Positions 21,314 to 58,625 of a stretch of 64,000 bases of DNA are shown here, piece after piece. The notes under the pieces were generated by a model. That model was not told where the DNA came from. It was given only the letters and a program-made list of their open reading frames with translations, and ran no database searches. The position numbers were made by a program, and so were the translations under genes. Each line of letters opens with the position of its first letter. The first letter of the stretch is position 1. The DNA is from Yuukianura sp. NJ FZ-2021 (lineage: Eukaryota), in NCBI GenBank assembly GCA_046563655.1, contig CM102285.1, positions 12,524,001 through 12,588,000 of the forward strand, in the 5' to 3' direction.

Positions 21314-24300
21314 GTAAGAGAGTCAATTTTGAAATTAATTTTTTCTGTCACTTTGTGTGATTTCATGTCAATTGGAAAATTTTATGGGAATGCAATGCCT
21401 GGAATGCTTCGGAAATTAGTTTTCGGTCTTGTTGAGTGTTGAGTTTTTGGGAAGATTTTTGTTAAGCTGCTTCGAATTATTTAATTTTTATGAAAGAATA
21501 GTGAAAAACATGTAAATTAGATATGGCGAAAGCTGAAATAATTGCAGTAATACAAAGACGGAAACAGGAGATCAGATATCATAGTGAGCGTAGGACCTGT
21601 TTTCAGCCATTTTCGAAGAGACAAAGCAGGCAAGCGTGAAAATAAAAGCGGAAGGTGTGAAACTTTTTTTTTCCGTCGTGGAGTGTCATACTTTCTCCAT
21701 TTCGTTCTGAGGTAGAATTGGAAAAATCTCTCTTTCATATTCATTTTAACTAGGAGAAAGTAGAACTTTCAATGTTGTTTGTAAGTTCCTTATGCGAATG
21801 GGCCGTTTTCAATTTGGCATAAGGTATGACCTCTTTAGATTTTCAGTTTCTAAAAATAAAAAAGAGATTTAGACATTTGAATTGAATTTTTAGAAATCAG
21901 TGTTAAGGGAGAATTGAATAGATAAAATGGAATTGAAATCTAATAAGTTGAAAGTGAGATTTAGTTGGTGGAAAAAGTTGGGAAAATGGGCAATTGGAAT
22001 AGGATGGTGTAAGTGAGGAATTGTCAGTTTAAAGAGGATTTACAGCACAATTCTAGCCCTTCTCTTCCTAAGATTCAATTGAAATTGGAATTGAACGCGT
22101 ATGCCAAAGAATGTTATGAATGAAAGGACATGCGTTCAAGTACTCTCCATTACGTTGATCACATTTAACTACGCTTTAAATTGAATAAGGAAACTCAATT
22201 ACTCTTTTATCCCATTGTCTGTCCAATTTTCAGAAAATTACTTTTCTGGAAAATCCACGTCTTTTTCCTGTTTTGACGAATTTCAAATATTTTTCAAATA
22301 AAAATTCAAATTCCAAGTAATTTCTTTTTGAATTGTTACGATAATCGCAGTTAGTGAGAAGCAATGATAATTCTGGTGAAAATGAAGAGAAAAGAGAAAG
22401 TTTGAGTTGTTTTGTTTGGAAAACAGAAGTGTTTTTTTTTCTTAGATTTTTTTAGTGGAGGAAGGTGTTTTCTCTCCGTGAGGAGAAAGTGTAAAACGAC
22501 GTAAGATTTGGGTTGTTTGGTGGGAGATTACAAGGAAATAAAAAGAAATCCTATGGTAGGTGTAGGTTCTTTGGAACGAAAGTCTTGTTTCTTTTTCAGT
22601 TTCAGCAGTGTAAGACTGAACAGGCTGAATTCGTAATGAGACAAAGGATTTTGAACGAAACTCCTGTTGTTTAGAAAAGCTTGGGTGTCTTGAAGGAGAA
22701 AGTTCATTTTGAAGATGAACCCCTGCGGCAGAGCTTTTCGCTCGTCGTGGTGGGATTTAATTTACTACGTTTCTCTAAAACCTTACCCTCTTACAGACAC
22801 TTGCAGTGTGACACTTGATTAAATCTCTTGGGTTTTTAAGCTATTACTCTTCCCCTGGATCACAGCAATCCAATGGGGAAAACAAACATTTTCATTTAGA
22901 AAGTGAGGAACAGGTTTTGGAGAAAGAGAAATGAGGTTTTAAGGAGAAGTGAAAGTAAGAAGTGTTGATTTAAAAAAAGTTAAGAAAAGTGTGGATTAAA
23001 AAAACCTAAGAAAAGTGAGCCTTGTGTTTGCTGAGGTCACGGAAACTTGATTCTTGTGTGAACACATTGGGGAGGGTTAAGCTTCAAATTTTGAGTGACA
23101 GGAGGCTGAATTTTCACGTAGGGCCCATGTCAAAAGCGTCAGATGTTGATGATGGGTGCGCACTGCTAGTCTCAGCTTGTGACGAAGAATTGAAATTAAG
23201 GGTATTGAATTTTAGGGAGCCCTTGGCCCTTGTGAAGAGTTCGTTTCAAATTTTTTCCCCTCAAGGGACCCCGTATGTGCTGTCTGAAGTGGAAGCAAGT
23301 TAGTAGTGGAGTTGAATAAAAATGATTTCTGGGATCCTGAGGGTAGATTTGGTAAAAATGGTAATGGTGGGTAGTTTCCAGTGGTTCTGTAGCTTTACCC
23401 CCTGCGGAATGTAATGAGCTTCAACTCGGAAGATGGACAGAGTACTAAAACCCTGACCAATTATTTACTAAAGTGGAATTGGGGGAAGTTCTGGAAGGTT
23501 TTTTGGGAAATTTGATGTCCTAATTCCAGCAGAAGTTGCTTTTACTTACACCATTCCCCCTCCAGGAAGAAAGTACTTGAGCTATTAACAAATTTTAACG
23601 TTGAAAAGAGACTGGGGGAATCACAATTTGGGAAAGAATATTAATTGAGCTGATGCGGGTTTTGGCCAGCAGCGTAGCATTTTGTGGAGGTTGAGGACAT
23701 GAGGGACCCCTGGAATTGGATTTATTTAGACGAAGTGAGAAGGGATGTCGTTTTTCCATCCATCTTAGTCACTCGACCTCTTCGGTTCATTTCACTTTTG
23801 GAGAAGAGACGAGCTTCATTTTCATTCAGAGAGATCCTATGGATCTCTGAAACTTGCGTGAGAAGTGTCTTCAATTCCCCCTCCTGGAAACACTTGCATT
23901 TCCTTAGGAAATGTGCAGGGAACGAAGCTTTTAGATGGTTGTTCTCCCTCAGACTGAGTTTTCTTTTCCCTTGCCCCCTCCATGACCTCAAATGAGACAG
24001 AAGAGAAATGGACAGGGAGATCGAAGATCAGGAGGAACAAGAGTTATGTTTCCGCTAGCTTCAAAACATGTGTCCCTGACATGCCTAAGTATTTTCAACT
24101 TAAGTCTCATCATTAGAACGCTCAATCTTAGAAAAACTTAAGCGTAGGGTGTAAATTGATTAGTTAAAAAATTGTTAGGTTATTTTTAGAAGTAGAGTTG
24201 GATTTTAGCGATTTCGAAATTCGAGATTCAAGGAGACTTCCTTAACTTTAGGTTTTTACGGTTTTTGGACGACAAATTTTTGAATTTTCTCTAGATGGGT

Positions 24301-35500: not shown

Positions 35501-36076
35501 TTGCGGTTCTTTCGTTACCATACATTTTATACCGCAGCGTTCCAAGTCATACCGCAGCGTTTTACGAACGTCAAGGTTAAGTTTTATTCCGAAGAATTTA
35601 GAGTTCTCGGAATAAGAATTGAAATACGAAACGACCGATTACAAGGAAGTGAAGTGTTAAAGGTTATCAACGTCCGACGATGGATTCAGAATTTTCTGTT
35701 TACATTTGAACTCTGGTTTAAGATCCTCCAGGGATTTTATTTCAGTTGAACATGAGTCATGTACAACGATCTAGCGTCGATGATTGATGGGTTGTTGTTC
35801 TGGCTGCGACCGGTGTTACATTTCTGGTTCTAATTCTACTAAAGTTTATCTTATCCATTGTTCATACAACGCTCTTAGCCTACGTACTTGTAGTTCTATT
35901 GATATTAATTTACGTTGGAACGTTTTAACTTATCAACCCTTTCATTTTATGTTTATAGGCACTGGGAGATAAACTGGCTCTTCCAGTTCCTAGGAAAAGC
36001 AGGACGATTCATAATTTCGGACCAGTGGGATGTGATCGCTTCGAAGACTACTGCTTCTGCTGAAGAACACGAAAAT

Positions 36077-38668
36077 ATGGCCGCCACGGTGCGACGAAAC
36101 AGCTTTGTCGTCAACCTAGGCCGCTATTGGCCCACGACGCTGACACTTCTACTCCTCTCGACCTTGATTTCAACAGTTCATTGTGTATGCCCGAGCGGAT
36201 GTGCTTGTGACGACGAAAACTTACACGTCAACTGCGTTGACGCAAACCTTGACTTTGTGCCCATCACTCTCAATCCACTCGTGCAGAAACTGTTGTTGAA
36301 AAGCAATCGAATCCGAAGCGTCGAATCGGGGTTTGCTTTCTACCATGAATTGAACTACATTGATTTGTCCCACAATCATCTCCTCAAGATTTCACAAGGA
36401 AGTTTTTCAACACAAGCAAAGTTGAACGAGCTGCATTTAAATAATAATAAAATCACGTCGTTGAGCAACCTAACTTTTGGGAACAGTGCCGGAAACCGCG
36501 GGCTGCCGTCACTCATCCACCTCAACCTCAGAGTCAATTTACTTGAGAATATTGAGCCTGGAACTTTCATCTACACTCGAAGCCTGCGAGAGTTGGATCT
36601 TGGTGAAAACAGCATACGAGAAATTAATTCAAGTACATTTGCCGGTCTTGACAAGTTGCGAATTCTTCGACTGGATCGAAATGAACTTCGGGTAGTTCCT
36701 GGAGTTTTCTCAAACGGAACTCCGAGCAGTAACTTTGGGCAATATCCTGTCAACGGAGGCGGTGGTTCCTTGAGTCAACTCGTGGAACTGTTTCTAGGCA
36801 TGAATCCCATTGACACGCTGGGGAAAAATGCTTTCACAGCTCTCATCAACTTGGCCGTTCTGGATCTGAAGGGATGTCATTTGAATTCTATTGACCCTGA
36901 AGCCTTTCGTGGACTCTCGCAACTCAAGAAACTAATTCTATCAGACAACGACTTGAAGGCAGTTCCCTCTCCAGCCTTTGCACCGCTGCGACACTTGGAA
37001 ACGCTCAAAATTGGACGGAATCCTATTTCAAAGTTGGGAGCCTATGCCTTCAGTTCCCTCCGGGGACTCAAGGTTATGGAAATGAGCGGTGCTCCAGAAC
37101 TGGAGACTGTCGATGTCGTCACATTTGTTTCCAATTTGGATTTGGAAGTTATAGAGATCTCAAGCGCAAAGAAACTGCATGCCTTGCCTCCGAAGCTCTT
37201 CAAAGGGATGAGCAGTCTTCGGAATTTAATTCTGAAGGTACAGCATTCAACAAAACCCGTCATGCTATGAATTTTTGGAAAGTTTTTAATGTTGTGTTTG
37301 AAGTTTTCGAATTTTTTGAACAACGGATCTAGTAATATATATTTTTTATGTAATAATAATATCATAAAAACGGAGCCGCTCCTCTTGAGCAAACTTGAAG
37401 TGCTGTCGCGGACTTACGGAAGTCTCCTCATGAGATGAGTAAATTTTTAGCATTATCGAAAATGATGCTCTTCCTTTTCAAAAACGTTGGGTCAAATGAC
37501 TCGTTTCCGAAAGTAAGTTTTTTGTAGAGTCCAGCCCTTGGTAAAGTAAATATTTGCGAAAGAGGTAGATAATTTCGTGCCACGCAGCGTTTGTTTTACT
37601 GTACCTGGTTGGTTGGAAAGTATTTTTAGGTTGAATTTGCTAATGTGCGTTCTTTTCTTTGTTTTGCAGGACAATGCACTTACAACTCTACATGAAGACT
37701 TGGCTAGCTGGCAAAGTCTCCGCGTTTGTCGCTTGGAAGGGTACGATGTACAATTGCTACAAAGATTTAAAATTTTGAATGTGAAAAATCATTTGGCTAA
37801 AAATTATTTTTATTTTAGGAACCCGTTCCGCTGTTCCTGTGATCTTCTGTGGCTCCGTGATTTACTTTCACTGCCAAGATTCAAGAACTCCTCATTCCTC
37901 GTCCTCTGTGATGAACCCCGAGAGGTCCATGAGAAGCGAATTAGTTCCTTGTCTGAAAATGACTTGGACTGCTACCTCAACGGACCGATGCAGAAGACGC
38001 TCCTCGGCATCTCCATTGCGGCTGTGGTGATTCTCCTCGCCATCCTCTTCTTCGTCCTCTATCGTTTCCATGATAGAATTAAAAATTCATGCAAGAGAAA
38101 CTGTTTTCGCCGAGGACGTAATTCGGGGCTCCGCAAGTCTCAGAGGGGCAATTCGACGTCTACAGTCAAAGCGTCGGAACATGACACGTCAACCAAAACT
38201 TCATTTCTGAGTCAGTCAGCCTACCCATACTCGGATGAAGAGTATGCTCTAAGGACAAGCCTTATGTCACCGTCACCACAACCTCCCAATGGCTCGTCGT
38301 CAATTCACGGCGGCGGTGGTCACCACGGTGCCCTCAACGGTCCCTATTCAACACATTCCCTCAACCCTAATAGCCTTCAGCGTCACTATCCTATTCATAG
38401 TTTGTCTCATCCACACTTTCACTACCAAACGCATGGACCACCGTATGTTCATGGACATCCCAATGGGACGCTACCACTTCCGCACTATGGTGACCCCGAG
38501 TATGAAACGCCAGTTAACTTGGGACTTGGAGGAAGCGACCCCTATGCTGATTCGCACCACTATGCTGCTCCAATGCTCAATGGCTTCAATGGTCACTCCA
38601 GTCAGCATCCAGTTCACTATAGCAATTCTCACCAAATCCAGAAACCGATTCCTGTGACGGAGTTATAG
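36077..38668 (+). CDS. trn/caps: Tartan/capricious-like LRR transmembrane protein, 3 coding exons (36077-37237, 37670-37740, 37819-38668), ~693 aa
   Basis: Signal peptide (TLTLLLLSTLISTVHC); LRRNT CPSGCACDDENLHVNC...VPITLNP; LRRs with FYHELNYIDLSHNHL; LRRCT GNPFRCSCDLLWL; TM segment LLGISIAAVVILLAILFFVLY; C-terminal KPIPVTEL as in Drosophila Trn/Caps. Confidence 0.88.
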
Positions 38669-39739: not shown

Positions 39740-39885
39740 TGAGAAACTTTCCCCTCCTATTCTTTTCGCAGTATGAGAATCTGCTTACTTTCCACTGGCG
39801 CTGATGCATTTGATTTTTTCACCGATCCCGAGTAGTTATCTCCTTGCAAAAAGGCCCTGAAATCCAATTGGGACGCAAAATCGAT
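39740..39885 (-). pseudogene. Inverted, frameshifted copy of a transferrin coding exon (39789-39885) plus ~45 nt of the following intron
   Basis: Reverse complement reads RFCVPIGFQGL/CKEITTR/IGEKIKCISASGK|gtaagc, versus RLCVPSGFQSLCEEMTTTRIAGKIKCISASGK|gtaagc at 48984-49080. Indels create an in-frame TAA. Confidence 0.85.
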
Positions 39886-39889
39886 CTAA

Positions 39890-40680
39890 TTAACACAAAA
39901 ATGTTCAATATTTTACAATTGGTTTCAGTTTAAACGAAAATTGAAGTTGAAGTTTCAAAATTTTGAAAATCCATATCTCTGCAACAAAAAGCGCCACAGC
40001 GATCATCGTTCACGCCATAACACGATCTTAAAGGAAGAATCTTTCAAAATTTTAAAAAGACCGAGATACCGAGAGTACAAAAAAAAAAATTGGCAAGTTT
40101 TGCCTTGCAATTTTTGCAAGTCCAAAATTTTTTCGAAATTTGGTCAAAATTTTGGGGTACCTTTTTAAAGTTTTTATAAAATTCTACATGTTTTTCTGAG
40201 TTTAGGCGTGAAGAGTTTAGCTTTCTATCGCTTTCCATTCCAAAGTGATGAATTTTTAAAGTTTTTAATTTTTTGAAATTTTCTGAAAGAGATTTAACAT
40301 GGAGAAATAGAGGAGTCAGTTTTGAAAGTGACCGGAGCTGCAAGGGGATCGTACGGCCCAGAAAGGCTACCCTGCCCACCTCAACTTTTTTTTTATTTTC
40401 CCGCACTCGCTTCTCTCGTTGGCAAAGGAGGGAGAGGAGCCTTCTTGTGCTTTGTAATCTCCTGTCAACTTCTTACAAAATCTAACTGCTCCACAACAAC
40501 TTTTTGCCCAAGCATTTTGAATTTTTGAAAATTCTAAAAATTTCAACTTCGCAACAATTTCGCCACTTGCAGCCCTCCGTTTACGTTGCAAAACATACTT
40601 CCACATGGTTTAATGCCAACTTTTTGCAAAAAATCAGTTTTCAACCTTGACAATTTGCAAAATTGTTGAAAATTTAACAT
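39890..40680 (-). repeat. Dispersed repeat copy A (inverted relative to copies at 46125-46625 and 48590-48980)
   Basis: 40170-40680 is a close reverse-complement match to 46125-46625 (near-identical spurious ORFs MWKYVLQ...). 39890-40290 matches 48590-48980 more loosely. Confidence 0.85.
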
Positions 40681-40709
40681 TAAAAAGGGTCCAATTCTTC
40701 GTGAATTTT

Positions 40710-44979: not shown

Positions 44980-46124
44980 GAACTACCTCAAGGTCAATGG
45001 TGACAGCTTTCCTCAGCTATTTTTATCACCACATTCTGTATGTACATTGTTATTCGTCTTCCATTAACTTCAAACTCCAATTCCATTTATAGCCCTCATG
45101 TTTTGAAATTGCTTCTTGTCCAGTTATCCAGTTTTATCCGGCCATGTTAATTTTTTGTATTTGGTTTTCCATTGAAAATAAAGTTTTAGCATACGTAATT
45201 TTCAAAATTGAACTTTCAACAGAACCTTATAAGTGGGATATGGGATGCTTTTAACCCTTGGTACTATAGCGTGACTCGCGAGATTTGTCCAGGATCAAAC
45301 CAGTGACGTTGCAAATTTTTAATTGTAGCTCGAACGCCTGCATTTGGAATAATTTTCGCATCTTTTTCATTAGTACATTAGTAGTTTAAAAGCAGTAGAT
45401 TTCGCCCTTGTTACTACTAGCCCTGTGACCTTGATTCCTTGACCTTCAAAAATCACAATAGGAACTCATGCAGTGCATAGAAGGAAGTCTCACGCCAATA
45501 ACTAATTTGCAAGTAAAAATTAACTTTTGTTAGCCTAACTTTTTTAAACATTCACCTCTTTCACCTATGCCATATAGGCTTCGAAAGGAAATTTTGGCAT
45601 CTCTGACAACAACACGCTTCTTTCCACTTGGAACTGAAAGTTCGCAAAAGCCAAATCGACTCTGAATATTCAATGGCTTCATCCATTCAATCCCCGTCAA
45701 CATGTCTGCTATTCGTGTACCCCTTTACCACAAATTCGCAATGATCCAAAACTTTCCAGGAGCATAGTCGGTTTTTCCATGCAGAAGAAGTGAAATATGT
45801 GAGTGCTTGTGCAATTTTTTGAAGACTGATCAGATCTCATCACTAAACTTACACTATTAAAGTTAACAATTCCAAGAAACTTTATTTAATTTTAGCATAG
45901 GTTATTCCAGGACTGGAGTCATCTTTCTGGAAGAAGTGCTAAGGAAAGGAAAATTGATTGCGGAAGTTAATGTTAATTGTGAGTGTGACCATCGCACATC
46001 AAGATAGCATCTAAACTCACTGTGAAGATCATCCTTATAATAGTAGGATTATTGGAAACTTTCCCTTTTGGAGAAAGTTCGGGAAATGCGTTGGTAGGAG
46101 AATCATGTAAGCAATCCAATTTTA

Positions 46125-46625
46125 AAATTGCAAATTTTGCAAATTTTCAAGATTGAAAACTGATTTTTTGCAAAAAGTTGGCACTAAACCATGTGGAAGT
46201 ATGTTTTGCAACTTAACTCGAGGGCTGCAAGCGGAAAAATTGTTGTAAAGTTGAAATTTTTAGAATTTTCAAAAATTCAAAGTGCTTGGGCAAAAAGTTG
46301 TTGTGGAGCAGTTAGTTTTTGTAAGAAGTTGACAGGGGATTACAAAGCACAAGAAGGCTCCTCTCCCTCCTTTGCCAACGAGAGAAGCGAGTGCGGGAAA
46401 AAAAAAGTTGAGGTGGGCAGGGTAGCCTTTCTGAGCCGTACGATCCCCTTGCAGCTCCGGTCACTTTCAAAACTGACTCTGTTACTTCTCCATGTTAAAT
46501 CTCTTTCAGAAAATTTCAAAAAATCAAAAACTTTAAAAATTCATAACTTTGGAATGGAAACCGATAGAAAGCTAAACTCTTCGCGCCTGAACTCAGAAAA
46601 ACATGTAGAATTTTCTAAAATTTGA
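46125..46625 (+). repeat. Dispersed repeat copy B
   Basis: Reverse complement of 40170-40680. Its 3' ~120 bp recur directly at 48591-48712. Confidence 0.85.
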
Positions 46626-47021
46626 AGAATTTTAAAAAACAAAATTTTGAGCAAAATTTTCAGAAATTCGCCAGTAGCTTCTTGTTAGCTATTGAACTGT
46701 TTTAAAACTTTAAAAAACCTACAAGGTTTTTTAAATCTCTGAATTTAGCACTGAAGAGATCTTCCCAATAATAAATACCTTTCCCGAGATATGAATTTTG
46801 ACACTTTTTTTATTTTTGAAATATTTTGTATGGAATGGAACTAAGTTTGAATGTTTGAAAAAGTTGAGGGATTAATCCATTCAACAGTGTTCACTTTTCT
46901 GCTCAACTTTTTGACTTCCACACATAACTGTAATTATTCGACTAATTAGATAAGATAAACCAGTAAACCAAAATTATCTTCGGATCCAATCAGAACCAGC
47001 CCACAAATCATTTCAGACTTC

Positions 47022-47884
47022 TTACACCGTAGCAATGACGATCAAAAGGTGAGCAATGTCGGCAACGCCATTCAGCAAATCCGGTGCTATTCGGGCCAAG
47101 TTTTCGCTTGCAAATTCACAGGCTGGGAAGATTCGAATGACGAAGGATGGCTGTAAATTGAAGGAGAATTTGGCAATTAATCAATGAACGCTCACAGAAT
47201 CAATGAATCAGATTATTAAATAGCTTTCGCTATTTAATAAGTTCTGAATTTCATACGTTTCAGTTTATACCGTATCAGCAGATGACTGATGATGAACATT
47301 CACAATCCCAGCAGCTTGCTTACGTTGAAGATATGTGATAAATCCACTTCGTAGGTTATTGTTACTTTGTAGTACGTCCAAGTGATCCCTTCCACACGGT
47401 AAGGCGAGCAGCATGCAATGCTCTTGTTCCTTCTGTCACAGCCGAAGAATATTTGAGTTGTTATTCAATTCCAGAGTTTACTAGGTTCAAGCGTAAAGTT
47501 TAAATTAAAATAAATAAACATGTACCTGCAATTCCCTTGCGACTCCATCAAGTTGGACAGTCTCAAGTCGCATCCTTTGAGAAATTCGAAGTGGGAGGGT
47601 CGTTCCATTAGGATTTGTTGGTAGCGCATCGGTGGCACCATTCATGTTTCCAGACACGAAATGAAATTGGCATGCAGCACTATCATTCTTGAGTGCGAGT
47701 ATTCCTTGCCAAACGATTGGGTATCGCTGCAAAAACAACAAAATCACTTAGCATTTTAACAAATCTAAGGTCAAATTAGTACTGCAGCAGTACTACTGCT
47801 TATTCGTACGTGAAGCAACACTAGCATTGAATCTCCTCGCGGAGGCAGTTGTGGGGAATTACGTATCCGTGATTCTGGGGCCAT
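47022..47884 (-). CDS. Stand-alone Spen/SHARP-type SPOC-domain protein, 4 exons (47884-47810, 47726-47526, 47432-47271, 47150-47022), 188 aa
   Basis: Spliced translation: MAPESRIRNSPQLPPRGDSMLVLLH-RYPIVWQGILALKNDSAACQFHFVSGN...LRISQRMRLETVQLDGVARELQ-KEQEHCMLLALPCGRDHLDVLQ...GFITYLQRKQAAGIVNV...-PSFVIRIFPACEFASENLARIAPDLL...HLLIVIATV*. This matches the Spen C-terminal SPOC domain. All three introns are GT-AG and phase 0, with no stops. Confidence 0.88.
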
Positions 47885-48347
47885 CTTCCGCGAAATTTAA
47901 GCCGAGGATTCTTTGTAGTGGACGGACGAGGCGAGACCTTTTCCTCAATAATTTGTAAACGTTAAATAACTTCCGCTCTAAAACAAGAGAATCAAAAAAA
48001 ATGAAAAAAAATGTAAACAAATAAGTTTACGAGATGACAAAATGGGGACGGACTATTCCGCTGATCCGCTGATCGGATTCCGCTGCGCCAGATGAAATCT
48101 ACTACATATTACAAGATAATGTCTGTCCGACCACAGTATGAGTGAACCAACCTCGCATCTGTTGTAGCCACTGAAATAGAAAACAGAGGAGTCCCACACA
48201 CCATACTCGCATCGCACCCTTCTCTTTTCTTTCCACTCACTCGGAGCACAAAATAGACAGCACAAGGAATGGGATGCGCTAAAACGGAATTGCGTGATGT
48301 TTTTCACTTTGACTTTAATCTGTCAATTCGGTTGCGTACGCTATAGC

Positions 48348-48387
48348 CTAGGCTTTTCATTTGCCGTGAGGCAAATGAAAAGCCTAG
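48348..48387. repeat. Perfect 18-bp hairpin with GTGA loop
   Basis: CTAGGCTTTTCATTTGCC-GTGA-GGCAAATGAAAAGCCTAG. Confidence 0.9.
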
Positions 48388-48983
48388 TTTAGAATAAGAC
48401 AGAACATGTGTTTTTTAAATTTTGATCTGCACTAAAATATTAAATTTTTCATTCGGCGTGAAGCTTTTTTGAGATCTTTAAAAGTTTGATCTTTTTGAAG
48501 TGTTGCTGTTGCCAAATTTTTGCACTAAAGTAAGGTATGTAAATCGGTACTCTTTTCGGAGCATAATTTCGGCTCCCGGAAATTCTGTATTCTTTCAGAA
48601 AATTTTTAAAAAATCAAAAACTTTAAAAATTCATAACTTCAGAACGAAAAGCGACAGAAAGCTAAACCTTTTCATGCCCGAACTCATAAAAACATACAGA
48701 ATTTTCCAATTTTCTAATATTTTTTAAAAGGTGCCCCAAAATTTTGACCAAATTTCGAATAGCATTGGCTTTTTTTTTTGCTAAACATTTTTCGGTTCGT
48801 TTTCGCTTTTTTTAAATTTTTAAACGATTCTTATAAGATGATGTCCTGGATGTGAAAGATGGGTGTCGTTAGTCCTTTTACCGTTTCATAGATATGAATT
48901 TCCAAAGTTTTAAAATTTCAATTTCAATTTTCGCTTTAAACTGCAACCAATTGTAAAAGATTGACCATTTTTGTGTTGTTTAG

Positions 48984-51693
48984 ACCGATTATGCGTTCCA
49001 AGTGGATTCCAAAGCCTGTGCGAGGAGATGACAACTACTCGGATCGCTGGGAAAATAAAATGCATCAGCGCCAGTGGAAAGTAAGCGGATACTCTTACAG
49101 TCAAAAAATATGAGGAAAGTTTATTCGTCCCGAGTATACATAGTTGACTATTTTTGTTTAGGATTGGATGCATCGAAAAAGTCATCAAAGATGAAGCGGA
49201 TTTTCTACCTCTAGAACCCGAAGAAATTTTCGTTGCTCATAAATATCAGCGAAATGGACTAAACGTCATTGCGGAGATTCGCTCAATTGAATTCGCTTCA
49301 CGTTAGAAGATCATCAAAAATGATTTCAAAATAGAGGCAGATCCAAACAGAGCACGCAATCTAAAATATTTTTAACCATTTTGTGCTTTTTAGGTGACTA
49401 CCGCTATGAGCCAGTTGCCATCGTAAGAAAAAGTTCTGGAATCACGAAGATCTCTGACCTCAGAGGAAAGAAGTCGTGTCATACCGGCTATGGAAGAAAT
49501 GCTGGTTGGAAAGTCCCATTTTCGCATTTGATGGACAAGAACGAACTGCCTGGACTTTGTAACGAAATTGATGCTTCTACGCCTGAGAGAGATCTGTATG
49601 CAATGTCCAAGTATTTTGGAAAAGCATGCGCTCCGGGTCCATGGGTGGAAGAAAAGGACGCCGATGTCAATCTACGTAAGTAATCAATGTATTCAGCTGG
49701 AAATGTGTTGTGACCTGGATTTATTGACCTCATTTTGGAAAAACAGGGAGCAAATATTCCAACTTGTGTGAACTCTGCAAGAGTCCAAGAGACTGCGACG
49801 GTAAAGACGTCTACTCTGGCTACGAAGGGGCCCTTAAGTGCTTGACCGAAAACAATGGAGATGTCGCCTGGACAAAAATGGATGCAGTTCAGCGGTTTTT
49901 TCGATTGAATTCGACGTAAGCATATAAACGGCTTCCATTACGTGACAAATGGACAAGCATCAACTAATTTTCGAATTTTTGATCCAGCACTCCGTCTGCC
50001 ATTGTTGGAAGCTATGCATTTCTATGCTGGGATGGATCATCGCAACCTTTGACCTCACCTAGACCATGTTCTTGGGCCAAGCGACCGTGGAGAGCTTTCT
50101 TAGCTACAAGGCGTCTCACTTATGAAGCAATCGCCGACCTTCAAAAGGAAATCAGTTCCTATGTTTCTCAGGCAAAGCAACTTCGAGAAACGAATACCTC
50201 AGTGAACTGGGACATCAAAGTTCTGGAAGTCAACGCTACTAGCGAAACGGAAGTTCCTTACTTACCACATTTGGCAAAATCTACGTCTGCTTATAGCTAC
50301 CTTCAGCAGAAAAACTACACTGTGACAATTGAGAAACCATCTTGCTCCGTTGCGAAACTTGTCCGAATTTGTGTAAAAGATGTACTGGAGAAGCTCAAAT
50401 GCGAAGAACTGCAACTGGGAGCAATTGGAAAACGAATTGTGCCTGGATTTGATTGTGTTTTAGGAGAAAGTCTTTGGGATTGCTTCAAGAAAGTTCAAAA
50501 TGGACAGGCAGATGCTGTCATTTCAACAGCCAAAGACGCTGCTGTTGGAAAAGCGTAAGTTGAAGAACACAAATTTTGAAAATTGAAATTCACATTTCTT
50601 TAAAAATTCTAGGGAATATGGGCTGGTTCCAATTGTCAGCACTTTGGAACTAATCGACGAAGCATCTCAGGAAAAGGCTCCATACAAGTTTGCAGTTGCT
50701 GTCATTCGGAACGATTCGGCAATTCGGAATATTACGGACTTGAAAGGAAAGAAATCCTGTCATGGATCTATTCGGAGTTTTGCTGGTTGGAACATTCCGT
50801 TGAACCATCTTCGAAATGCTGGATTGATATCTGGACCGACTTGTGGATTGCCTCTGGAAATGGCGAAACTTTTTAATGGATCGTGTGTGCCTGGACTATT
50901 CGACGCTAAGCGCAAGATGCCTTGGCTTCCGGATTCACTTTGCTCGATATGCGCTGGAGATACTGTGGAAGGAGATCCAGCAACGATAACACCCGGGACG
51001 CTGTGTCAAGACGGTCCACAAGAACGATTTTTCGGGCCCCGCGGTGCTCTGCTTTGCCTGACGGAGAATGTAGCTGATGTCGCCTTCATTGATCATGTCG
51101 CACTGCTCAAGCTAGTGTCAGAAGGTTAGTGAATCTCGTTTTTCAAAAGACTAAAAGCATCTAAAACGTTTTAAAAGTTGATGTTTTCCGTTTTACAGGC
51201 GTCATTACCCTGAACGAGGTCAAACTTTTGTGTCCGCAGGGACAGACCATGGAACCAACACAATTCCGACATTGTAACTGGGGGAAAGCTCCTTCCAGAA
51301 AAATTTTGAGCCGAGATGGCGATCCCAGTAAAGTGCTAAGGGAAGATGCAAAATTTAGCTTATTAAAAGCTGGTGCGACATTTTCACCTGACTGGGCATC
51401 CAATGTCGTCCCATTGTTTGGGCCTTACTACAGCAACAGAGACGTCTTATTTCTAGTAAGCTGTAGTTCTACAATAGTTTGACCTGTTAATTGTTTGACC
51501 TTAATTAATCTTTTAATTCCAGGACACTTCAGTGGGTTTGGCCAACAATGTCCAGGACTTGAAATCCGAAGAAATCATCAATGCATTTGATTTTTGTAAA
51601 ACTTCGGCTGCTAGAATTAATTCAGCAGGTTTCGCATTCCTTTTGACAGCGTTCCTTCTTTTCTCACATATCTTGAATATCAGTAATGCTTAG
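48984..51693 (+). CDS. Bilobed transferrin family protein with a hydrophobic C-terminal tail; first (signal peptide) exon not identified
   Basis: Exons begin at 48984 (RLCVP), 49162 (IGCIEKVIKDEADF), 49394 (YRYEPVAIVRK...KKSCHTGYGRNAGWKVP), ~49747 (YSGYEGALKCL...GDVAW), ~49988, ~50613 (KKSCHGSIRSFAGWNIP...GALLCLTENVADVAFI), ~51199 and 51523. Stop TAG at 51691-93. Confidence 0.9.
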
Positions 51694-52113
51694 CTTAAAA
51701 GCAAAGTGATTAATTAATTGTGCATTAGTTAATTGTTATAACTTAACAATAAAAACTCCACCCGTTTAAATTTTCAAAGTATTCCTGGTTTAGTGGCAAA
51801 ATTGAAATTCTACGAGGCAAAAAGGTTCCCACTTTTATAGCGTCCTTCTGTGAGACTTGGCAAAAAACGCGCGAAAATTATTCCATGCAGAAGATTCAAA
51901 ATTAAAAAATAAAAACAAAAGTTGAAAGTAAAAAAAAACAAGAAATCAATCAAACAAATTGAAATTTAGTTTCAAAAGTTAATTGTTTCTCATTAATCCT
52001 TCATTTCAGGTAATTAAGTTGTCAAATTAAGAATTAATGACACATTTGTATTGGCATTAGTGACTATCTTCCAGAAAGTGTTTACTGAAGTTTAGAAACT
52101 GTAAAGAGCAATA

Positions 52114-54577: not shown

Positions 54578-57296
54578 CTACTGTTGTCGAGCTAGGAGCC
54601 CTAAAAATGGAAAACACACAGAATCATAAGCGTTGCTGCGCTTGTGGCCTTTTTAAAAAATAGTTTTCGAAAAACACATTACCAGTAGCGATCAGTACAG
54701 CTAAAACATGTTCACAAGCTTTACCACGAGCGCATGTACAGGTTCTTCCGGCCAATTTGACCTGAATTGATCAATTAATGTTTACAATTTTATAATTTTG
54801 AAATATATTTCAGGAGAGAAATTTTTCAAAGTAGCTCTGCTTACATGGTACTCCGTTCCTCCTAGGCCCTTCACCGAAAAAATTCCTTGTCCCTTCAACC
54901 ACTGTATTCGGTCTTTGGCGATGAAAAAGTGAGCCAACCCTTCGAACAATTGAAGTTCGTTCTCAGAGCATCCTTGGTAGTCGCTTCCACTTCCAAGAAC
55001 TTGCGGTGGATTGCGGGACAACATCGTTACCACTTCGGATGGACAGATAGCATCTTCCAGTATTTCAAATCCACCTTCCGGCAGTAATCGCGCTGCCAAC
55101 GACGGAGAATTGTCAGGCACGTCATCATATTTAGTTTGAACTTGCAAATCTCCAACAACAGTAGGTCCCACTCCAGCTATCGTTCGAATAATTTCGTTGT
55201 AGATGTTACACTGAAGAAAGTACACTAGGTGAACCATTTTCGTGTGGTCGAACGTCAGCGTTTTGGCGCATGACACTAAAATGTAATCCAATTTTGAAGA
55301 AGAGATTCGTGGCCCATTGGGATCAGCTACATGTACGGTTGGAATATCTGGAAGTTGAGTTTCGACGGCCTTGGTAACTCCAGGTTCGTCAAATATAATT
55401 AAATCGACTTCGGGAGTGTTGAGAACTGGAATGAGTTGCTTCATTGTAGCAAAGAAGTTTGCATGAGCTTCTGTGCTGTGTTGCCGATGGAGAAGGACGG
55501 CTACTGGTACATAAGGCGTAGTGTCAAATAATGGATGTCGCAAAAACAGAGTTGTAACGAGGAAGAGGTATAACTTGGCTACGGGTTGGTATGTAAAGGC
55601 CAATTTTGAGTCCAGCAAATCCAGAGCGGCCAGTGTATTGATGTGCTGGAGCAGGTGACTTTCGCAGACGACGATGCAGGAGCCATTGGTAAAGTCCAAT
55701 CGTCTAATCAGCTTGTTCGGTCCGGAGAAGGCTTCATTCAATACGTAGCAGCCGTAAATGTCATCTTTTGCTATGCTTATGTGGAGTCCAGAGATAGAAG
55801 AGGAGGTGGACTTGGTTTTTCTGAAAAGCGAAAGACAAAAAATTATGTCTCACAAATTACTAATTACTTTTGGATTTCGATATTTAGTGACACTAAATAA
55901 CCTGGAATTTGCAATTGGATTTCTATGCTTTAAGTTTGGACCAGTAACTTCGATACCGTTGCACGTTAGTAGAGCAAGTTGTGTCAGGTCAATAACCTTG
56001 TTCGCTCCAGAACCTTCGGATTCTAAAGTTAGAAAGGAAAAGTGCATTGCATCAGTTAGCATCAAAACGTAAGTAACGTAAAGATTAACGATGATACAGT
56101 TGTGCTTTTGTAGCTTGCAAATTTCCATTAGTACCTACAACGGCCCCATAAATTTCCATAGGGTCCGTTCTTCCTCGTTTGATGTCAAGATCATCGTCGT
56201 GGTCAGTGTCTTTCCGCTTGAGGGAATCATCGTTGTCGTCAAGGTCATCCTGATCAGCAATACTAGCAACGGCAGAACTAATTGCCCTGGCTAGTGGATT
56301 GTTCAAAGGAAGTACCAACTCTCTGTGTCTGCCCTTCTTCGGGGATCGCATCAATGGTCCGCCGCCATTTCTTCTTCCAGCATGAGGGGCCAACTGTGCC
56401 TCATTGACAGGATAATTCCCGAAATAGTGAATTACAATGTATGGATGCTTCCACTGAGCAATATTGATCGGGTACTTGAAATTTTTTCCTGTGTCATTAA
56501 TTAACAAGATCAGCAACAACTGAATTAGAAATACCCAGTGATGTAAAAGTGAATTATAAAAGAATACGACACACACGGCACTCACCCGGTTCATGATATT
56601 CGTGGCGAAAGAAGTCAACCTTATTACCATTGTCTAGGAGCCGGAATTCTAGTTGCAAAACGAAGCGAATTCGGATTTTAGGGGAAGAATGTACTTACAA
56701 ACTAAATTAACACTGGTGCGGATACGAATAACTCACCGTGTCTAGTTAAAACAGGCTTCACGTTCTTTTTTGGAAAATTGTTTGCACGAAGGTTCACCCA
56801 CTGAAATCCATCGAATCTCCAGTCATAAGCGCTTTGTCCAGGATTCAAAGCGTATACATAAACCTGGGAACAATAACATGAAATAACACGAAGTTACATC
56901 AATTTGGCAATCAGAGTAAAAGAGTCATCATAACTTCTTTTGTCGCAGGATTGAATAAGTTACCTGCCCGGCGACAATCGGTCTCTGTGGAGGAACTCTT
57001 GTGATCCTAGGGTCATCTGGGTTCAATGTTTTCAGCAATTTCAGAACGTCCATATACGTCTGAAGTCCGCCTTCCGCATAAACAGGTACAGCCATCGGCG
57101 AAGGCAGAGAAAGCACAGTCTCGTCACCAATATCTTCCTTAATAAGGAAAAATTTGTTCTCGTGTTCATCAGTGGCCTCGACTTCCTCGATGTACTCTTC
57201 AGTTTCTTCATCTGCCGGTACCTCAACTTCCGGAACTTCCTCGTCTTCCTGCTGCATGTCTTCTCCCTCCAATTCATTTTCCTCCACGACCATCAT
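54578..57296 (-). CDS. MULE/Mutator-like transposase-derived protein (acidic N-terminus, CG-1-like region, degenerate DDE core, C-terminal SWIM finger), ~8 coding exons
   Basis: Spliced translation includes PPQRPIVAGQVYVY...DWRFDGFQWVN, FFRHEY, IVIHYFGN, TTLFLRHPLFDTTPYVPVAVLLHRQHSTEAHANFF and CTCARGKACEHVLAV (CxCx5CxH). The last exon, 54600-54578, ends GLLARQQ*. A few extra N-terminal residues from upstream exons are possible. Confidence 0.7.
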
Positions 57297-57703
57297 CCTT
57301 TTCTAAAAATGTCAGAAACCCCAGTTAAACCAATTCCATGCCGATTACTTTAATTTCCATTCCATTCCAGTATCCAGTCTCCAGTGGATTGGACCTGGAA
57401 GAAAAAAGCGTGTAGATCAAATGTGACCGTACCTGATGAAACTTAATTGGTTCTCCGTTTACAAAAGAGGCAGTCGACTTCCGATTCACCAACAGATACT
57501 TGTCAGCATAAACAAATGATGAATGGTGAAGTTAATTGACAGATTAATTAGTTAACAATACCTTGTTAATTGTTTTTGTTTATGTTTACTAGCCTAAATA
57601 ACTTAGAGTTAACTATGAGTTTCTCCTTATGGGAGAAGTTAGGTTATAAAAAATGGAAATTTTTTATACCCTAGGTTTGGCCATTTGGAGAAAGCCATAG
57701 TTA

Positions 57704-58625
57704 CCGTAAATGCTCTAATATAAGCGCGCCGCTTATAAGAATTTTCGACCTTTCGGACGCGCCTCTATTAGAACACTATTTATTACCGGAATAATTAATA
57801 AGTTTTAAGTGAGCCTAAATTCAATTAATAGTTAATAGATTTACGCCACAGACGAGGAACGATTTTTTGATTTGGTCACTTGAAATTCCAATCCACGCTG
57901 CAATGACCAAGGAAATCATAACTTCTTTCGAAGGAGCCTTGAGATTTCCGCCTTTCGTGTAAAACTAATCCCCTGCATTCATCCATTCTTCGTACTGCTA
58001 AGCCAGTTTGTCTTTGAACGGTTGTTCCAGCAAACGTCAGGCGCCTGAGTGTACTTGGTACAGCCTCCAGGAATTACGGCAGTGAGAGTGTTAAACTGTT
58101 TTAAGTGTTCTTTCGTTGCGGTGCTAATGTGGCATTTGTAAGAGTCCCAGATCAGGAGTCGTCGCGAAAATGAAAATTTGCCGTAAACAGTGGAAATCCA
58201 ATCGTTGGTCAGATTTTCATTCATCCAACCGTTTTTGCTGCTTGAAATTAGTTAAATTTTTACCGATTTTATCCTTTTGCTTCAGCCAACTGAAGACTTG
58301 TTTTCGGTGTATTCCGAAGTGAGCTGCAGTACCATCCGTGGTATTAGTAGAAGCGTACTGAACCACTTTTAACATAAAACTGAGATCAAACGATCGTCTT
58401 TTAGGTTTCACCATTTTTAAAACTTCTTATTTAAGTGCTACAATTTGATTTCAATCGAATTAGCAACAAATAGACGTTAAACAAATGATGTCACTTTGAT
58501 CTAGGCCCTGTTTTAAACTCAACTTAGCTACCGCGCTTATATCGCAATTTGCCTCCGCTCAAACCGCGCTTGCATTAGAGTATGCGCTTCTATTAGAATA
58601 CGCGCTTGCATTAGAGCATTTACGG
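57704..58625 (-). mobile_element. Internally deleted pogo-superfamily (DD35D, POGK/Passer-like) transposon
   Basis: TIR CCGTAAATGCTCTAAT(A/G)(T/C)AAGCGCG at both ends; TA TSD (57702-03, 58626-27). A Brinker-like HTH ORF (58217-58414) abuts an out-of-frame DDE fragment NGWMNE...LIWDSYKCH...IPGGCTKYTQAPDV (35 residues between the Ds) that carries a further frameshift and stop. Confidence 0.88.

What the first reader, a model, noticed from the sequence alone, without database searches (positions are those of the whole stretch)
47022..47884. A gene encoding only the Spen/SHARP SPOC domain (188 aa)
Seen: four intact exons encode a complete Spen-type SPOC domain with only ~15 extra N-terminal residues. 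An in-frame TAA ends 12 nt upstream of the ATG, the sequence before the ATG is a poor acceptor, and no Spen-like RRM or low-complexity exon occurs upstream in the window. The basic-patch motifs (LALK, LRIxQRMR, ITYLxxK) are retained. Known: Spen/SHARP is a multi-thousand-residue RRM protein whose SPOC binds phosphorylated SMRT/NCoR. Inference: a free SPOC module could act as a decoy or adaptor for corepressor binding, or be the separated C-terminal half of a split spen gene.
Basis: partly seen in the sequence, partly recalled or inferred. Interest (0 to 1): 0.75.

Follow-up and report, generated by a model that had tools for sequence, protein, structure and literature searches.

The report
Stand-alone Spen SPOC domain gene
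A small four-exon gene in an unidentified arthropod-like genome encodes only the partner-binding SPOC domain of the giant regulator Spen; it looks like a relocated tail piece of that gene kept intact by selection, but nobody has yet shown that it is expressed on its own.

Summary
Four phase-0, GT-AG exons on the minus strand (47884-47022) give a 188-aa open frame that is a complete Spen/SHARP-type SPOC domain plus about 9 new N-terminal residues. An in-frame TAA lies 12 nt before the ATG.

In 24 of 24 related loci that can be judged, the same exon runs on upstream for 36 to more than 3,300 codons. The window keeps only the last ~16 residues of that exon. No other Spen sequence occurs anywhere in the 64 kb.

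The two AGs that could join an upstream coding exon score below all 11 real acceptors of this region. The one strong acceptor (47978) leads into stops.

The gene lies in a ~1.8-1.9 kb segment bounded by direct repeats, and a third copy at 39.7-40.7 kb has the two flanks joined without it. Window-lineage changes are 10 non-synonymous to 18 synonymous (neutral expectation ~3:1), but amino-acid change is faster than in the two nearest relatives. One ligand-contact residue is charge-reversed.

Best reading (about 0.5): a relocated or partly duplicated spen 3' end that now forms a SPOC-only gene. Expression and the presence of a full-length spen elsewhere could not be tested: no genome is held and no RNA run was listed.

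The parts
47810..47884 (-). Exon 1: ATG at 47884 and 25 codons. About the first 9 residues are new. From about codon 10 (SPQLPPRGDSMLVLLH) it matches the end of the large pre-SPOC exon of Spen, which holds the N-terminal helix of the solved SPOC domain.
   Evidence: 15-residue match to L012 exon, 67% identity, E 0.36; Halyomorpha Spen residues 4070-4085
47526..47726 (-). Exon 2: 67 codons, first half of SPOC. It carries the LALK and LRISQRMRLE basic-patch residues and the K-to-E change at the SHARP R3566 position (residue 90).
   Evidence: (PF07744, 44.4 bits)
47271..47432 (-). Exon 3: 54 codons, middle of SPOC. It carries ITYLQRKQ with the Y3602 and K3606 equivalents and a window-specific L-to-R change next to K3606.
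   Evidence: (E 0.009)
47022..47150 (-). Exon 4: 42 codons plus TAA. The C-terminal strand ends ...HLLIVIATV, identical to the closest relatives.
47897..47899 (-). In-frame TAA that closes the frame 12 nt upstream of the ATG.
47978..48240 (-). Candidate 5'-UTR intron (263 nt): GTGAGT donor at 48240 and a strong pyrimidine-tract TAG acceptor at 47979-47978. The 93 nt from the acceptor to the ATG hold no ATG, and the SPOC frame there holds two stops. This is a prediction only.
   Evidence: (acceptor score 6.4, 97th percentile)
46809..46814 (-). AATAAA polyadenylation-type signal 207 nt after the stop codon. It lies at the edge of the downstream flanking repeat.
46502..46815 (+). Downstream flanking repeat (B). 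Positions 46502-46658 are 80% identical to 48591-48755, and a further 40-nt match follows at 46776-46815. It is part of a longer copy, 46118-46658, that is 91% identical to 40681-40136.
48591..48918 (+). Upstream flanking repeat (B'), in the same orientation as B. It runs on into the first recognisable transferrin exon (48984-49082).
39744..40681 (-). Third copy, in which the two flanks are joined with one copy of the repeat and no SPOC segment (an 'empty-site' arrangement). It includes a degenerate copy of the transferrin exon.
47885..48590 (-). 706 nt between the ATG and the upstream repeat. It shows no similarity to Spen or to anything else in the window and holds a 40-nt perfect hairpin at 48348-48387. 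This is the presumed promoter and 5'-UTR region.

Best explanation
This is a SPOC-only gene. It arose when the 3' end of a spen gene (the last ~16 codons of the large pre-SPOC exon, three SPOC exons and the 3' UTR) was cut off from the rest and placed in the MCM2-transferrin interval, most likely by partial duplication and insertion.

It acquired an ATG in a good context about 9 codons upstream of the break (shown). It probably also acquired a non-coding leader exon (inferred). The 188-aa product would be a free, folded SPOC domain that still binds phosphoserine peptides. It could therefore compete with, or add to, full-length Spen for SMRT/NCoR-type or Pol II CTD-type ligands, possibly with altered peptide preference.

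Shown: the anatomy, the truncation, the conservation and the repeat-bounded setting. Inferred: independent transcription, translation, ligand binding, and the existence of an intact spen elsewhere.
For: 1. The frame and splice sites are intact, the SPOC domain is complete, and Pfam matches above threshold. The closest relative's equivalent 188 aa align to the whole solved SHARP SPOC domain (1OW1, E 3.5e-58).

2. The truncation falls inside a conserved exon. In 24 of 24 of the 53 fetched loci that can be judged, the frame continues at least 36 codons upstream of the ...GDSLLMLLQ segment. In the window it is closed 4 codons before the ATG.

3. Positive control. The pre-SPOC region of L001 and L012 detects the homologous exon in 8 and 11 other loci, down to relatives with only ~61% SPOC identity. 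In the window it finds only the 15-residue remnant.

4. Twelve of 12 full-length arthropod Spen proteins hit nothing else in the 64 kb.

5. The only in-frame AGs are weak, and the strong acceptor at 47978 leads into stops. The ATG has A at -3 and G at +4 and is the first ATG after that acceptor.

6. The 11 introns solved here are 68-120 nt. The nearest possible upstream exon would be more than 16 kb away, across at least three plus-strand genes: transferrin, MRP-L47 and ARD.

7. The segment lies between direct repeats, with an empty-site copy at 39.7-40.7 kb.

8. Selection. dN/dS is 0.022 against L012. Window-specific changes are 10 non-synonymous to 18 synonymous, where neutrality expects a non-synonymous fraction of 0.765 (binomial P = 5e-6). 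If the flanking repeats (80% identical) date the insertion, about 66 neutral substitutions would be expected in the coding sequence.

9. The equivalents of K3516, R3548, R3552, Y3602 and K3606 are kept.

10. Precedents: C. elegans DIN-1S, and an engineered fly Spen 'SPOC-only' that acts as a dominant negative in Wingless signalling (passages of PMC3656731, PMC6337844 and PMC5501677).
Against: There is no transcript evidence of any kind, and the whole genome is not held. So neither an independent start site nor a second, full-length spen is shown.

An AAG lies directly before the ATG in phase 0, the phase of all three introns of this gene. Its matrix score (-2.4) is only a little below the weakest real acceptor (-0.8), and the matrix rests on 11 sites.

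No relative shows the same SPOC-only arrangement (0 of 24), so there is no cross-species conservation of the new gene as such.

Most of the purifying-selection signal may predate the relocation. Dating by the flanking repeats assumes that they arose with the insertion; they could be copies of an interspersed repeat.

The window's SPOC has a longer tree branch (0.096) than L001 (0.013) and L012 (0.039). It has 10 window-specific amino-acid changes against 1-2 in each relative (Tajima-type P 0.007-0.02), while synonymous counts are similar. One change is K-to-E at the R3566 contact. This could mean decaying constraint and not a new function.

The N:S contrast with the relatives is only marginal (Fisher P = 0.07).

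The predicted leader exon and intron rest on consensus matches alone.
Confidence: 0.5

Rival explanations
1. These are the ordinary last exons of a full-length spen gene. The preceding coding exon lies beyond the window end, more than 16 kb upstream. It is spliced onto the AAG|ATG (phase 0) or CAG|AA site, with transferrin, MRP-L47, ARD and other genes nested in the intron.
For: A phase-0 AG sits directly before the ATG, and all three introns of this gene are phase 0. In every named arthropod Spen seen, SPOC is the extreme C-terminus of a protein of 2,489-5,852 aa. No stand-alone Spen-type SPOC gene turned up in the literature searches. Nested genes in long introns are common in arthropods (general knowledge).
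Against: It needs a new intron inside a block (…TPPHASQVPPxGDSLLMLLQ) that is uninterrupted in 24 of 24 relatives. That intron would be over 130 times the length of the 11 local introns, which are 68-120 nt. Both candidate acceptors score below all real ones. The residues between the ATG and codon ~9 do not resemble the conserved block they would have to continue. The segment is bounded by direct repeats, with an empty-site copy.
Confidence: 0.2
2. It is a non-functional relic: a fairly recent partial duplicate or rearrangement fragment of spen (or an assembly mis-join) that is not expressed as a protein and has simply not yet decayed.
For: It is truncated, relocated, flanked by repeats, and sits in an interval with other duplicated debris, such as a degenerate transferrin exon at ~39.8 kb. 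Amino-acid change is faster than in the nearest relatives, including changes at sites that are invariant elsewhere: K90E and the H-to-R change in VIHIFP. No orthologous SPOC-only gene was found in any relative.
Against: There are no stops, frameshifts or lost splice sites in 564 coding nt and 6 splice sites. Window-specific changes are strongly biased to synonymous (10 N: 18 S; P = 5e-6 against neutrality). The flanking repeats have diverged to 80% identity, which, if they date the event, predicts about 66 substitutions in the coding sequence under neutrality. The ATG has a good context and the frame before it is closed. The window has no N.
Confidence: 0.2
3. It is a true split of spen. The genome has no other Spen-type SPOC. 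The RRM-plus-linker part is encoded elsewhere and ends without SPOC, and the two products work as separate proteins.
For: The break lies exactly at the N-terminal edge of the folded domain, so both halves could remain functional. The SPOC sequence stays under purifying selection.
Against: An insertion-like, repeat-bounded 1.8-1.9 kb segment fits a copied fragment better than a reciprocal break. The raised amino-acid rate and the changed contact residue suggest a redundant copy. SPOC is needed on the same chain for Spen function in flies (PMC5501677 passages). It cannot be tested without the genome.
Confidence: 0.1

Closest known systems
SPOC domain of human SPEN/SHARP (PDB 1OW1, 2RT5, 7Z1K) and of arthropod Split ends
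   Same: Same fold family and the same subfamily. The closest relative's equivalent 188 aa match 1OW1 at E 3.5e-58 over the whole domain. In the tree the window groups with Spen sequences at 100/100 support in a clade with L001 and L012. The phosphoserine anchors K3516, R3552 and K3606, plus Y3602 and R3548, are kept.
   Different: In all named Spen proteins seen, the domain ends a chain of 2,489-5,852 aa with RRMs. Here it stands alone with about 9 new residues in front. The R3566-equivalent is glutamate, and the residue before K3606 is arginine.
[quoted passage not shown]
   Same: It is a natural Spen-family product without the long N-terminal part that acts as a corepressor partner in its own right (passages of PMC3656731 and PMC6337844). 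That it lacks the RRMs and keeps the C-terminal domain is my recollection of Ludewig et al. 2004, which I did not read.
   Different: DIN-1S is an isoform of the same locus as the long form and carries a nuclear-receptor interaction region. The window's gene has no Spen exon within 64 kb, is only the bare domain, and sits in a foreign gene neighbourhood.
Engineered Drosophila Spen 'SPOC-only' truncation
   Same: It is a C-terminal, RRM-less Spen fragment. It has potent dominant-negative effects in Wingless signalling (PMC5501677 passages citing their ref. 21). This shows that a free SPOC-bearing piece can interfere with Spen.
   Different: It is a laboratory transgene that keeps a longer C-terminal region, and it had no effect on fat storage. 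The window's gene is natural and minimal.
Partial gene duplicates / domain-only new genes
   Same: A truncated copy retains introns, gains a new start codon and sits between duplicated flanks. This pattern is known from general knowledge of new-gene origin in arthropods (recalled, not from a call).
   Different: I found no report of such a copy for spen/SPOC in the searches.

Membership tests
SPOC domain (Pfam PF07744), Spen subfamily | Significant match to the SPOC profile | tested here: met
   Exon 2 alone scores 44.4 bits against a cut-off of 25. Exon 3 covers profile positions 70-105 at E 0.009.
SPOC domain (Pfam PF07744), Spen subfamily | Covers the whole solved SHARP SPOC fold, including the N-terminal helix and the last strand | tested here: met
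   L001's equivalent 188 aa align to 1OW1 residues 19-195. The window is 89% identical to L001 over 159 columns and ends with the same ...HLLIVIATV. The test is indirect: the spliced window protein itself could not be given to the structure tools.
SPOC domain (Pfam PF07744), Spen subfamily | Phosphoserine-binding basic patch and tyrosine (K3516, R3552, K3606, Y3602; R3548 for acidic residues of SMRT) | tested here: met
   All five are present by alignment. Their roles are taken from PMC9834408 passages.
SPOC domain (Pfam PF07744), Spen subfamily | R3566-type residue that stacks on the peptide's tyrosine | tested here: not met
   It is glutamate in the window. It is K in the other 9 aligned arthropod-type sequences and R in human.
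Spen/SHARP family protein (RRM-SPOC architecture) | N-terminal RRMs in the same gene | tested here: not met
   No RRM or other Spen segment is found in the 64-kb window with 12 full-length Spen queries at E<=1. The frame is closed by a TAA before the ATG. Beyond the window this is not testable.
Spen/SHARP family protein (RRM-SPOC architecture) | Long pre-SPOC exon continuous with the ...GDSLLMLLQ segment | tested here: not met
   It is present in 24 of 24 relatives that can be judged. The window keeps only ~16 residues of it.
Short isoform from an internal promoter (DIN-1S type) | Shares its locus with the exons of the long form | tested here: not met
   No Spen exon lies within the 16 kb upstream or elsewhere in the window. 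Larger distances are not testable.
Processed retrocopy | Intronless, poly(A) tract, short target duplications | tested here: not met
   Three introns are kept at the same positions as in L012. The flanking repeats are 155 nt or longer.
Expressed protein-coding gene | Transcript with its own start site; protein product | not testable with these tools
   No RNA run was listed and no genome is held.

The most novel reading that the evidence does not exclude
This would be a naturally evolved, selectively maintained SPOC-only paralogue of Spen. A 21-kDa free phosphoserine-reader would work as an endogenous competitor or modulator of Spen-corepressor (SMRT/NCoR-type) or Pol II CTD contacts. Its peptide preference would be re-tuned by the charge reversal at the R3566 contact and the new arginine beside K3606. 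If so, it would be the first natural 'dominant-negative-like' Spen module outside nematode DIN-1S.
Probability: 0.3. Interest if true: 0.7.

Novelty: new variant of a known kind. Interest (0 to 1): 0.5.

Why it matters
Spen/SHARP works by bringing a silencing effector (SPOC) to RNA- or DNA-bound sites. Laboratory SPOC-only fragments interfere with Spen in flies.

A genome that keeps a bare, intact SPOC gene under selection would show that evolution has used the same trick. It would also give a minimal natural protein for asking which SPOC contacts matter in vivo and how a changed tyrosine-contact residue shifts ligand choice.

The locus is also a clean example of how a domain-only gene can arise: a break at a domain boundary, retained introns, a new start codon and repeat-bounded insertion. 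If transcripts show that the exons are simply the end of a long spen gene, the finding is ordinary.

Tried and rejected
- Whole-genome search: no genome is held for this window.
- RNA evidence: no RNA holder was listed for 46900-48400, so read laying could not be used.
- Earlier findings of this scan: nothing for this genome, its look-alikes, the sequence or the words searched.
- Reaching proteins longer than 2,000 aa with the search for homologous proteins by giving a long window reference plus 'region' returned an error because of stop codons. I did not repeat it. Long relatives came from the representative library instead.
- A mixed alignment with the separate exon pieces was not conserved enough for the locus search. 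A three-protein alignment worked.
- Naming the organism failed. An MCM2 exon is 88-92% identical to crustaceans, chelicerates, insects and vertebrates alike. A transferrin exon has one unnamed 53% hit, and otherwise 37% or less to vertebrate melanotransferrins. The SPOC tree places the window with five unnamed sequences, beside the named insects with weak support (81/31).
- The window's own 188-aa protein, or anything more than 71% identical over exon 2, was not found among proteins of 119-2,000 aa. Nothing above 70% was found among cluster representatives of any length.
- The weak repeated tblastn hits of SPOC proteins at 49602-49748 and 24009-24086 (E 0.1-8) were taken as chance.
- The sigma-70 promoter and terminator scan is not meaningful for a eukaryote. 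My scan for TATA, DRE, Motif 1 and Inr+DPE upstream of the ATG found only two Inr-like TCATTT sites without a DPE.
- Rfam and tRNA scans of the window found nothing.
- No convincing signal-peptide exon of the transferrin gene was found between 45.0 and 48.98 kb. It therefore stays open whether the SPOC gene lies in a transferrin intron or shares a divergent promoter region.
- Synteny: L012 has a DNMT2-like gene next to the spen 3' end. Neither the window nor any other locus has it, and no locus has MCM2, transferrin or ARD. With a single informative relative this says little.
- Structure prediction and complex prediction were not run. The spliced 188-aa protein is not a contiguous translation of the window, and the match to solved structures was already decisive for the fold.

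Full report
**The observation**

On the minus strand, four exons give a 567-nt reading frame of 188 codons plus TAA: 47884-47810, 47726-47526, 47432-47271 and 47150-47022. All three introns (83, 93 and 120 nt) are phase 0 and GT-AG. The window contains no N.

An in-frame TAA (47899-47897) ends 12 nt before the ATG. Pfam's SPOC model matches exon 2 alone at 44.4 bits (cut-off 25) and exon 3 at E 0.009.

**Which kind of SPOC it is**

Database relatives of exon 2 are Spen-type SPOC sequences. Among cluster representatives of any length, the best hits are 60-70% identical. They include full-length 'protein split ends' from many groups, always with SPOC at the extreme C-terminus:
- Hemiptera, Diptera, Hymenoptera, Coleoptera, a termite and a mayfly.
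- Ticks, spiders and Limulus.

A scan of metagenome contigs gave 53 related loci. The closest are L001 (84% identity over residues 13-188, contiguous), L012 and L011.

In a maximum-likelihood tree of 28 SPOC sequences, the window forms a 100/100 clade with L001 and L012. That clade sits inside a 100/98 clade of six unnamed sequences, which lies beside the named insects with weak support (81/31). I could not name the organism. It behaves like an unsampled pancrustacean-type arthropod.

The 188 aa of L001 that correspond to the window's protein match the solved human SHARP SPOC domain 1OW1 at E 3.5e-58, from its N-terminal helix to its last strand.

**What is missing**

L001 is transcript-like. 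It has no introns where the window and L012 have them, and its frame is open for 387 codons upstream of SPOC.

L012 is genomic and has introns at the same three positions as the window. Its exon ending ...QVPPHGDSLLMLLQ is at least 273 codons long.

Across the 53 loci, 24 can be judged at this point, and in all 24 the frame continues upstream by 36 to 3,317 codons. The rest either start too late or are too distant.

In the window only ...SPQLPPRGDSMLVLLH survives. The preceding ~9 residues (MAPESRIRN) resemble nothing in the conserved block …TPPHASQVPP…, and the frame is closed four codons before the ATG.

As a positive control, the pre-SPOC parts of L001 and L012 find the homologous exon in 8 and 11 other loci. 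These include relatives with only ~61% SPOC identity, where the exon lies ~2 kb upstream. In the window they find nothing beyond the 15-residue remnant.

Twelve full-length arthropod Spen proteins hit only 47025-47860 at E<=1. There is therefore no RRM exon anywhere in the 64 kb.

**Could an upstream exon still be spliced on?**

Between the TAA and the conserved part there are two AGs: AAG|ATG (phase 0) and CAG|AA (phase 1). I built a small matrix from 8 MCM2 introns solved here plus the 3 introns of this gene.
- The two AGs score -2.4 and -10.0, the 60th and 14th percentile of 7,470 AG sites.
- The real acceptors score -0.8 to 11.7 when each is left out in turn.

The matrix is crude (n = 11), and the AAG site is only slightly worse than the weakest real site. 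This weakens that route but does not exclude it.

A strong acceptor (score 6.4, 97th percentile) lies at 47978, 263 nt downstream of a GTGAGT donor at 48240. The 93 nt from it to the ATG contain no ATG and hold two stops in the SPOC frame. Transcripts using it could only start translation of SPOC at 47884. That ATG has A at -3 and G at +4.

An AATAAA lies 207 nt after the stop codon. These are predictions from consensus, not evidence of use.

**Surroundings**

MCM2 (plus strand, ~41.0-45.0 kb) converges on the gene. Upstream lie three plus-strand genes:
- a transferrin gene, first recognisable exon 48984-49082, running to ~51.7 kb;
- MRP-L47;
- an ARD dioxygenase.

Further upstream are minus-strand ORFs without any family match and a transposase remnant.

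The 11 introns solved here are 68-120 nt. An ordinary spen would therefore need an intron of more than 16 kb, containing at least three foreign genes, inside what is a continuous exon in all relatives.

**A repeat-bounded segment**

Positions 46502-46658 and 48591-48755 are direct repeats (80% identity). A further match follows at 46776-46815 and 48879-48918.

A third copy at 40681-39744 (minus strand) is colinear with 46118-46658 (91%) and then directly with 48591-49122 (74.5%), sharing one copy of the repeat. It even carries a degenerate copy of the transferrin exon.

Relative to that copy, the ~1.8-1.9 kb holding the SPOC gene, its 3' UTR and 706 nt of unrelated upstream sequence is an insertion between duplicated flanks. 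The alternative is that the third copy lost this segment by recombination between the repeats. The unequal identities (91% against 74.5%) show that the history is not simple.

I read this as support for relocation or duplicative insertion of a spen 3' fragment. I do not read it as proof.

**Selection**

Synonymous sites are saturated against all relatives (pS 0.66-0.91). dN/dS is 0.022 against L012, compared with 0.024 between L001 and L012.

Changes unique to the window, by parsimony against L001, L012 and L011, are 10 non-synonymous and 18 synonymous. Neutral change would give a non-synonymous fraction of 0.765 (P = 5e-6). If the flanking repeats date the insertion, about 66 neutral substitutions would be expected in the coding sequence. 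The frame and all six splice sites are nevertheless intact.

Against this, the window's protein evolves faster than its nearest relatives:
- Unique amino-acid changes number 10, against 1-2 in each relative (P 0.007-0.02), while synonymous counts are similar (18 against 14 and 11).
- The tree branch is 0.096, against 0.013 and 0.039.
- The N:S contrast is only marginal (Fisher P = 0.07).

**Function**

By alignment, the equivalents of K3516, R3548, R3552, R3554, Y3602 and K3606 are kept. According to passages of PMC9834408:
- K3516, R3552 and K3606 anchor the phosphoserine.
- Y3602 helps to coordinate it.
- R3548 binds the acidic residues of SMRT.
- R3566 stacks on the peptide's tyrosine.

The window has glutamate at the R3566 position, where the other nine aligned sequences have K and human has R. 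It also has a new arginine directly before K3606. The domain should still read phosphoserine, perhaps with a changed preference. This is inference.

A free SPOC would most simply compete with full-length Spen for its ligands. Two precedents exist:
- An engineered fly 'SPOC-only' Spen is a potent dominant negative in Wingless signalling, though it has no effect on fat storage (PMC5501677 passages).
- C. elegans makes a short DIN-1S form that acts as a corepressor with DAF-12 (PMC3656731 and PMC6337844 passages).

The SPOC review PMC10111866 lists RRM-SPOC, TLD-SPOC and a few other architectures but no Spen-type SPOC-only gene (section 5 and searched passages). My full-text searches found none either. 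Supplements were not consulted.

**Verdict**

The most likely reading (about 0.5) is a SPOC-only gene made from a relocated or partly duplicated spen 3' end. The rivals are:
- an ordinary spen end with a giant intron (0.2);
- an unexpressed relic or assembly artefact (0.2);
- a true split of the only spen (0.1).

Transcript data and a whole-genome search would settle the matter, and neither was available here.

Noticed in passing
window 40136-40681 (minus) and 46118-46658 (plus): These are 91% identical inverted copies that bracket the MCM2 gene (41.0-45.0 kb). They could be an inversion-type breakpoint signature or a pair of interspersed repeats.
   Followed up: partly
window 39744-39900 (minus): A degenerate copy, with indels, of the first recognisable N-lobe exon of the transferrin gene (48984-49082) and of its upstream flank. 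It lies between the LRR gene and MCM2.
   Followed up: partly
window 48348-48387: A 40-nt perfect hairpin (16-bp stem, 4-nt loop plus flanks) lies 460-500 nt upstream of the SPOC ATG. It matches no Rfam family, and its role is unknown.
   Followed up: partly
window 54785-55849, 56088-56633, 56931-57302 (minus): Long minus-strand ORFs (355, 182 and 124 aa; the last is very acidic) have no Pfam match even at E<=1. They may form a gene of unknown family. It ends with its own stop codon, so it is unlikely to feed into the SPOC exons.
   Followed up: partly
window 57982-58251 (minus): A remnant of a DDE_1 (pogo/Tigger-type) transposase (Pfam E 2.7e-6).
   Followed up: no
window 48984-51700 (plus): A two-lobed transferrin/melanotransferrin-like gene. 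Its signal-peptide exon was not found between 45.0 and 48.98 kb, so the SPOC gene may lie in its first intron or share a divergent promoter region with it.
   Followed up: partly
window 35909-38665 (plus): A large leucine-rich-repeat protein gene: a 453-aa ORF with seven LRR_8 stretches, followed by a 372-aa ORF with no family match.
   Followed up: no
L012 4539-5369 (minus): In this close relative, the 3' end of the full-length-type spen converges on a C-5 cytosine methyltransferase (DNMT2-like) gene. The window has MCM2 in that place and no such methyltransferase.
   Followed up: yes
L001 2-1702: This intron-less contig from a metagenome collection has a Spen frame at least 566 aa long and a 1.3-kb 3' region. 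It is probably a transcript. It shows that the nearest relative makes SPOC as part of a long Spen chain.
   Followed up: yes
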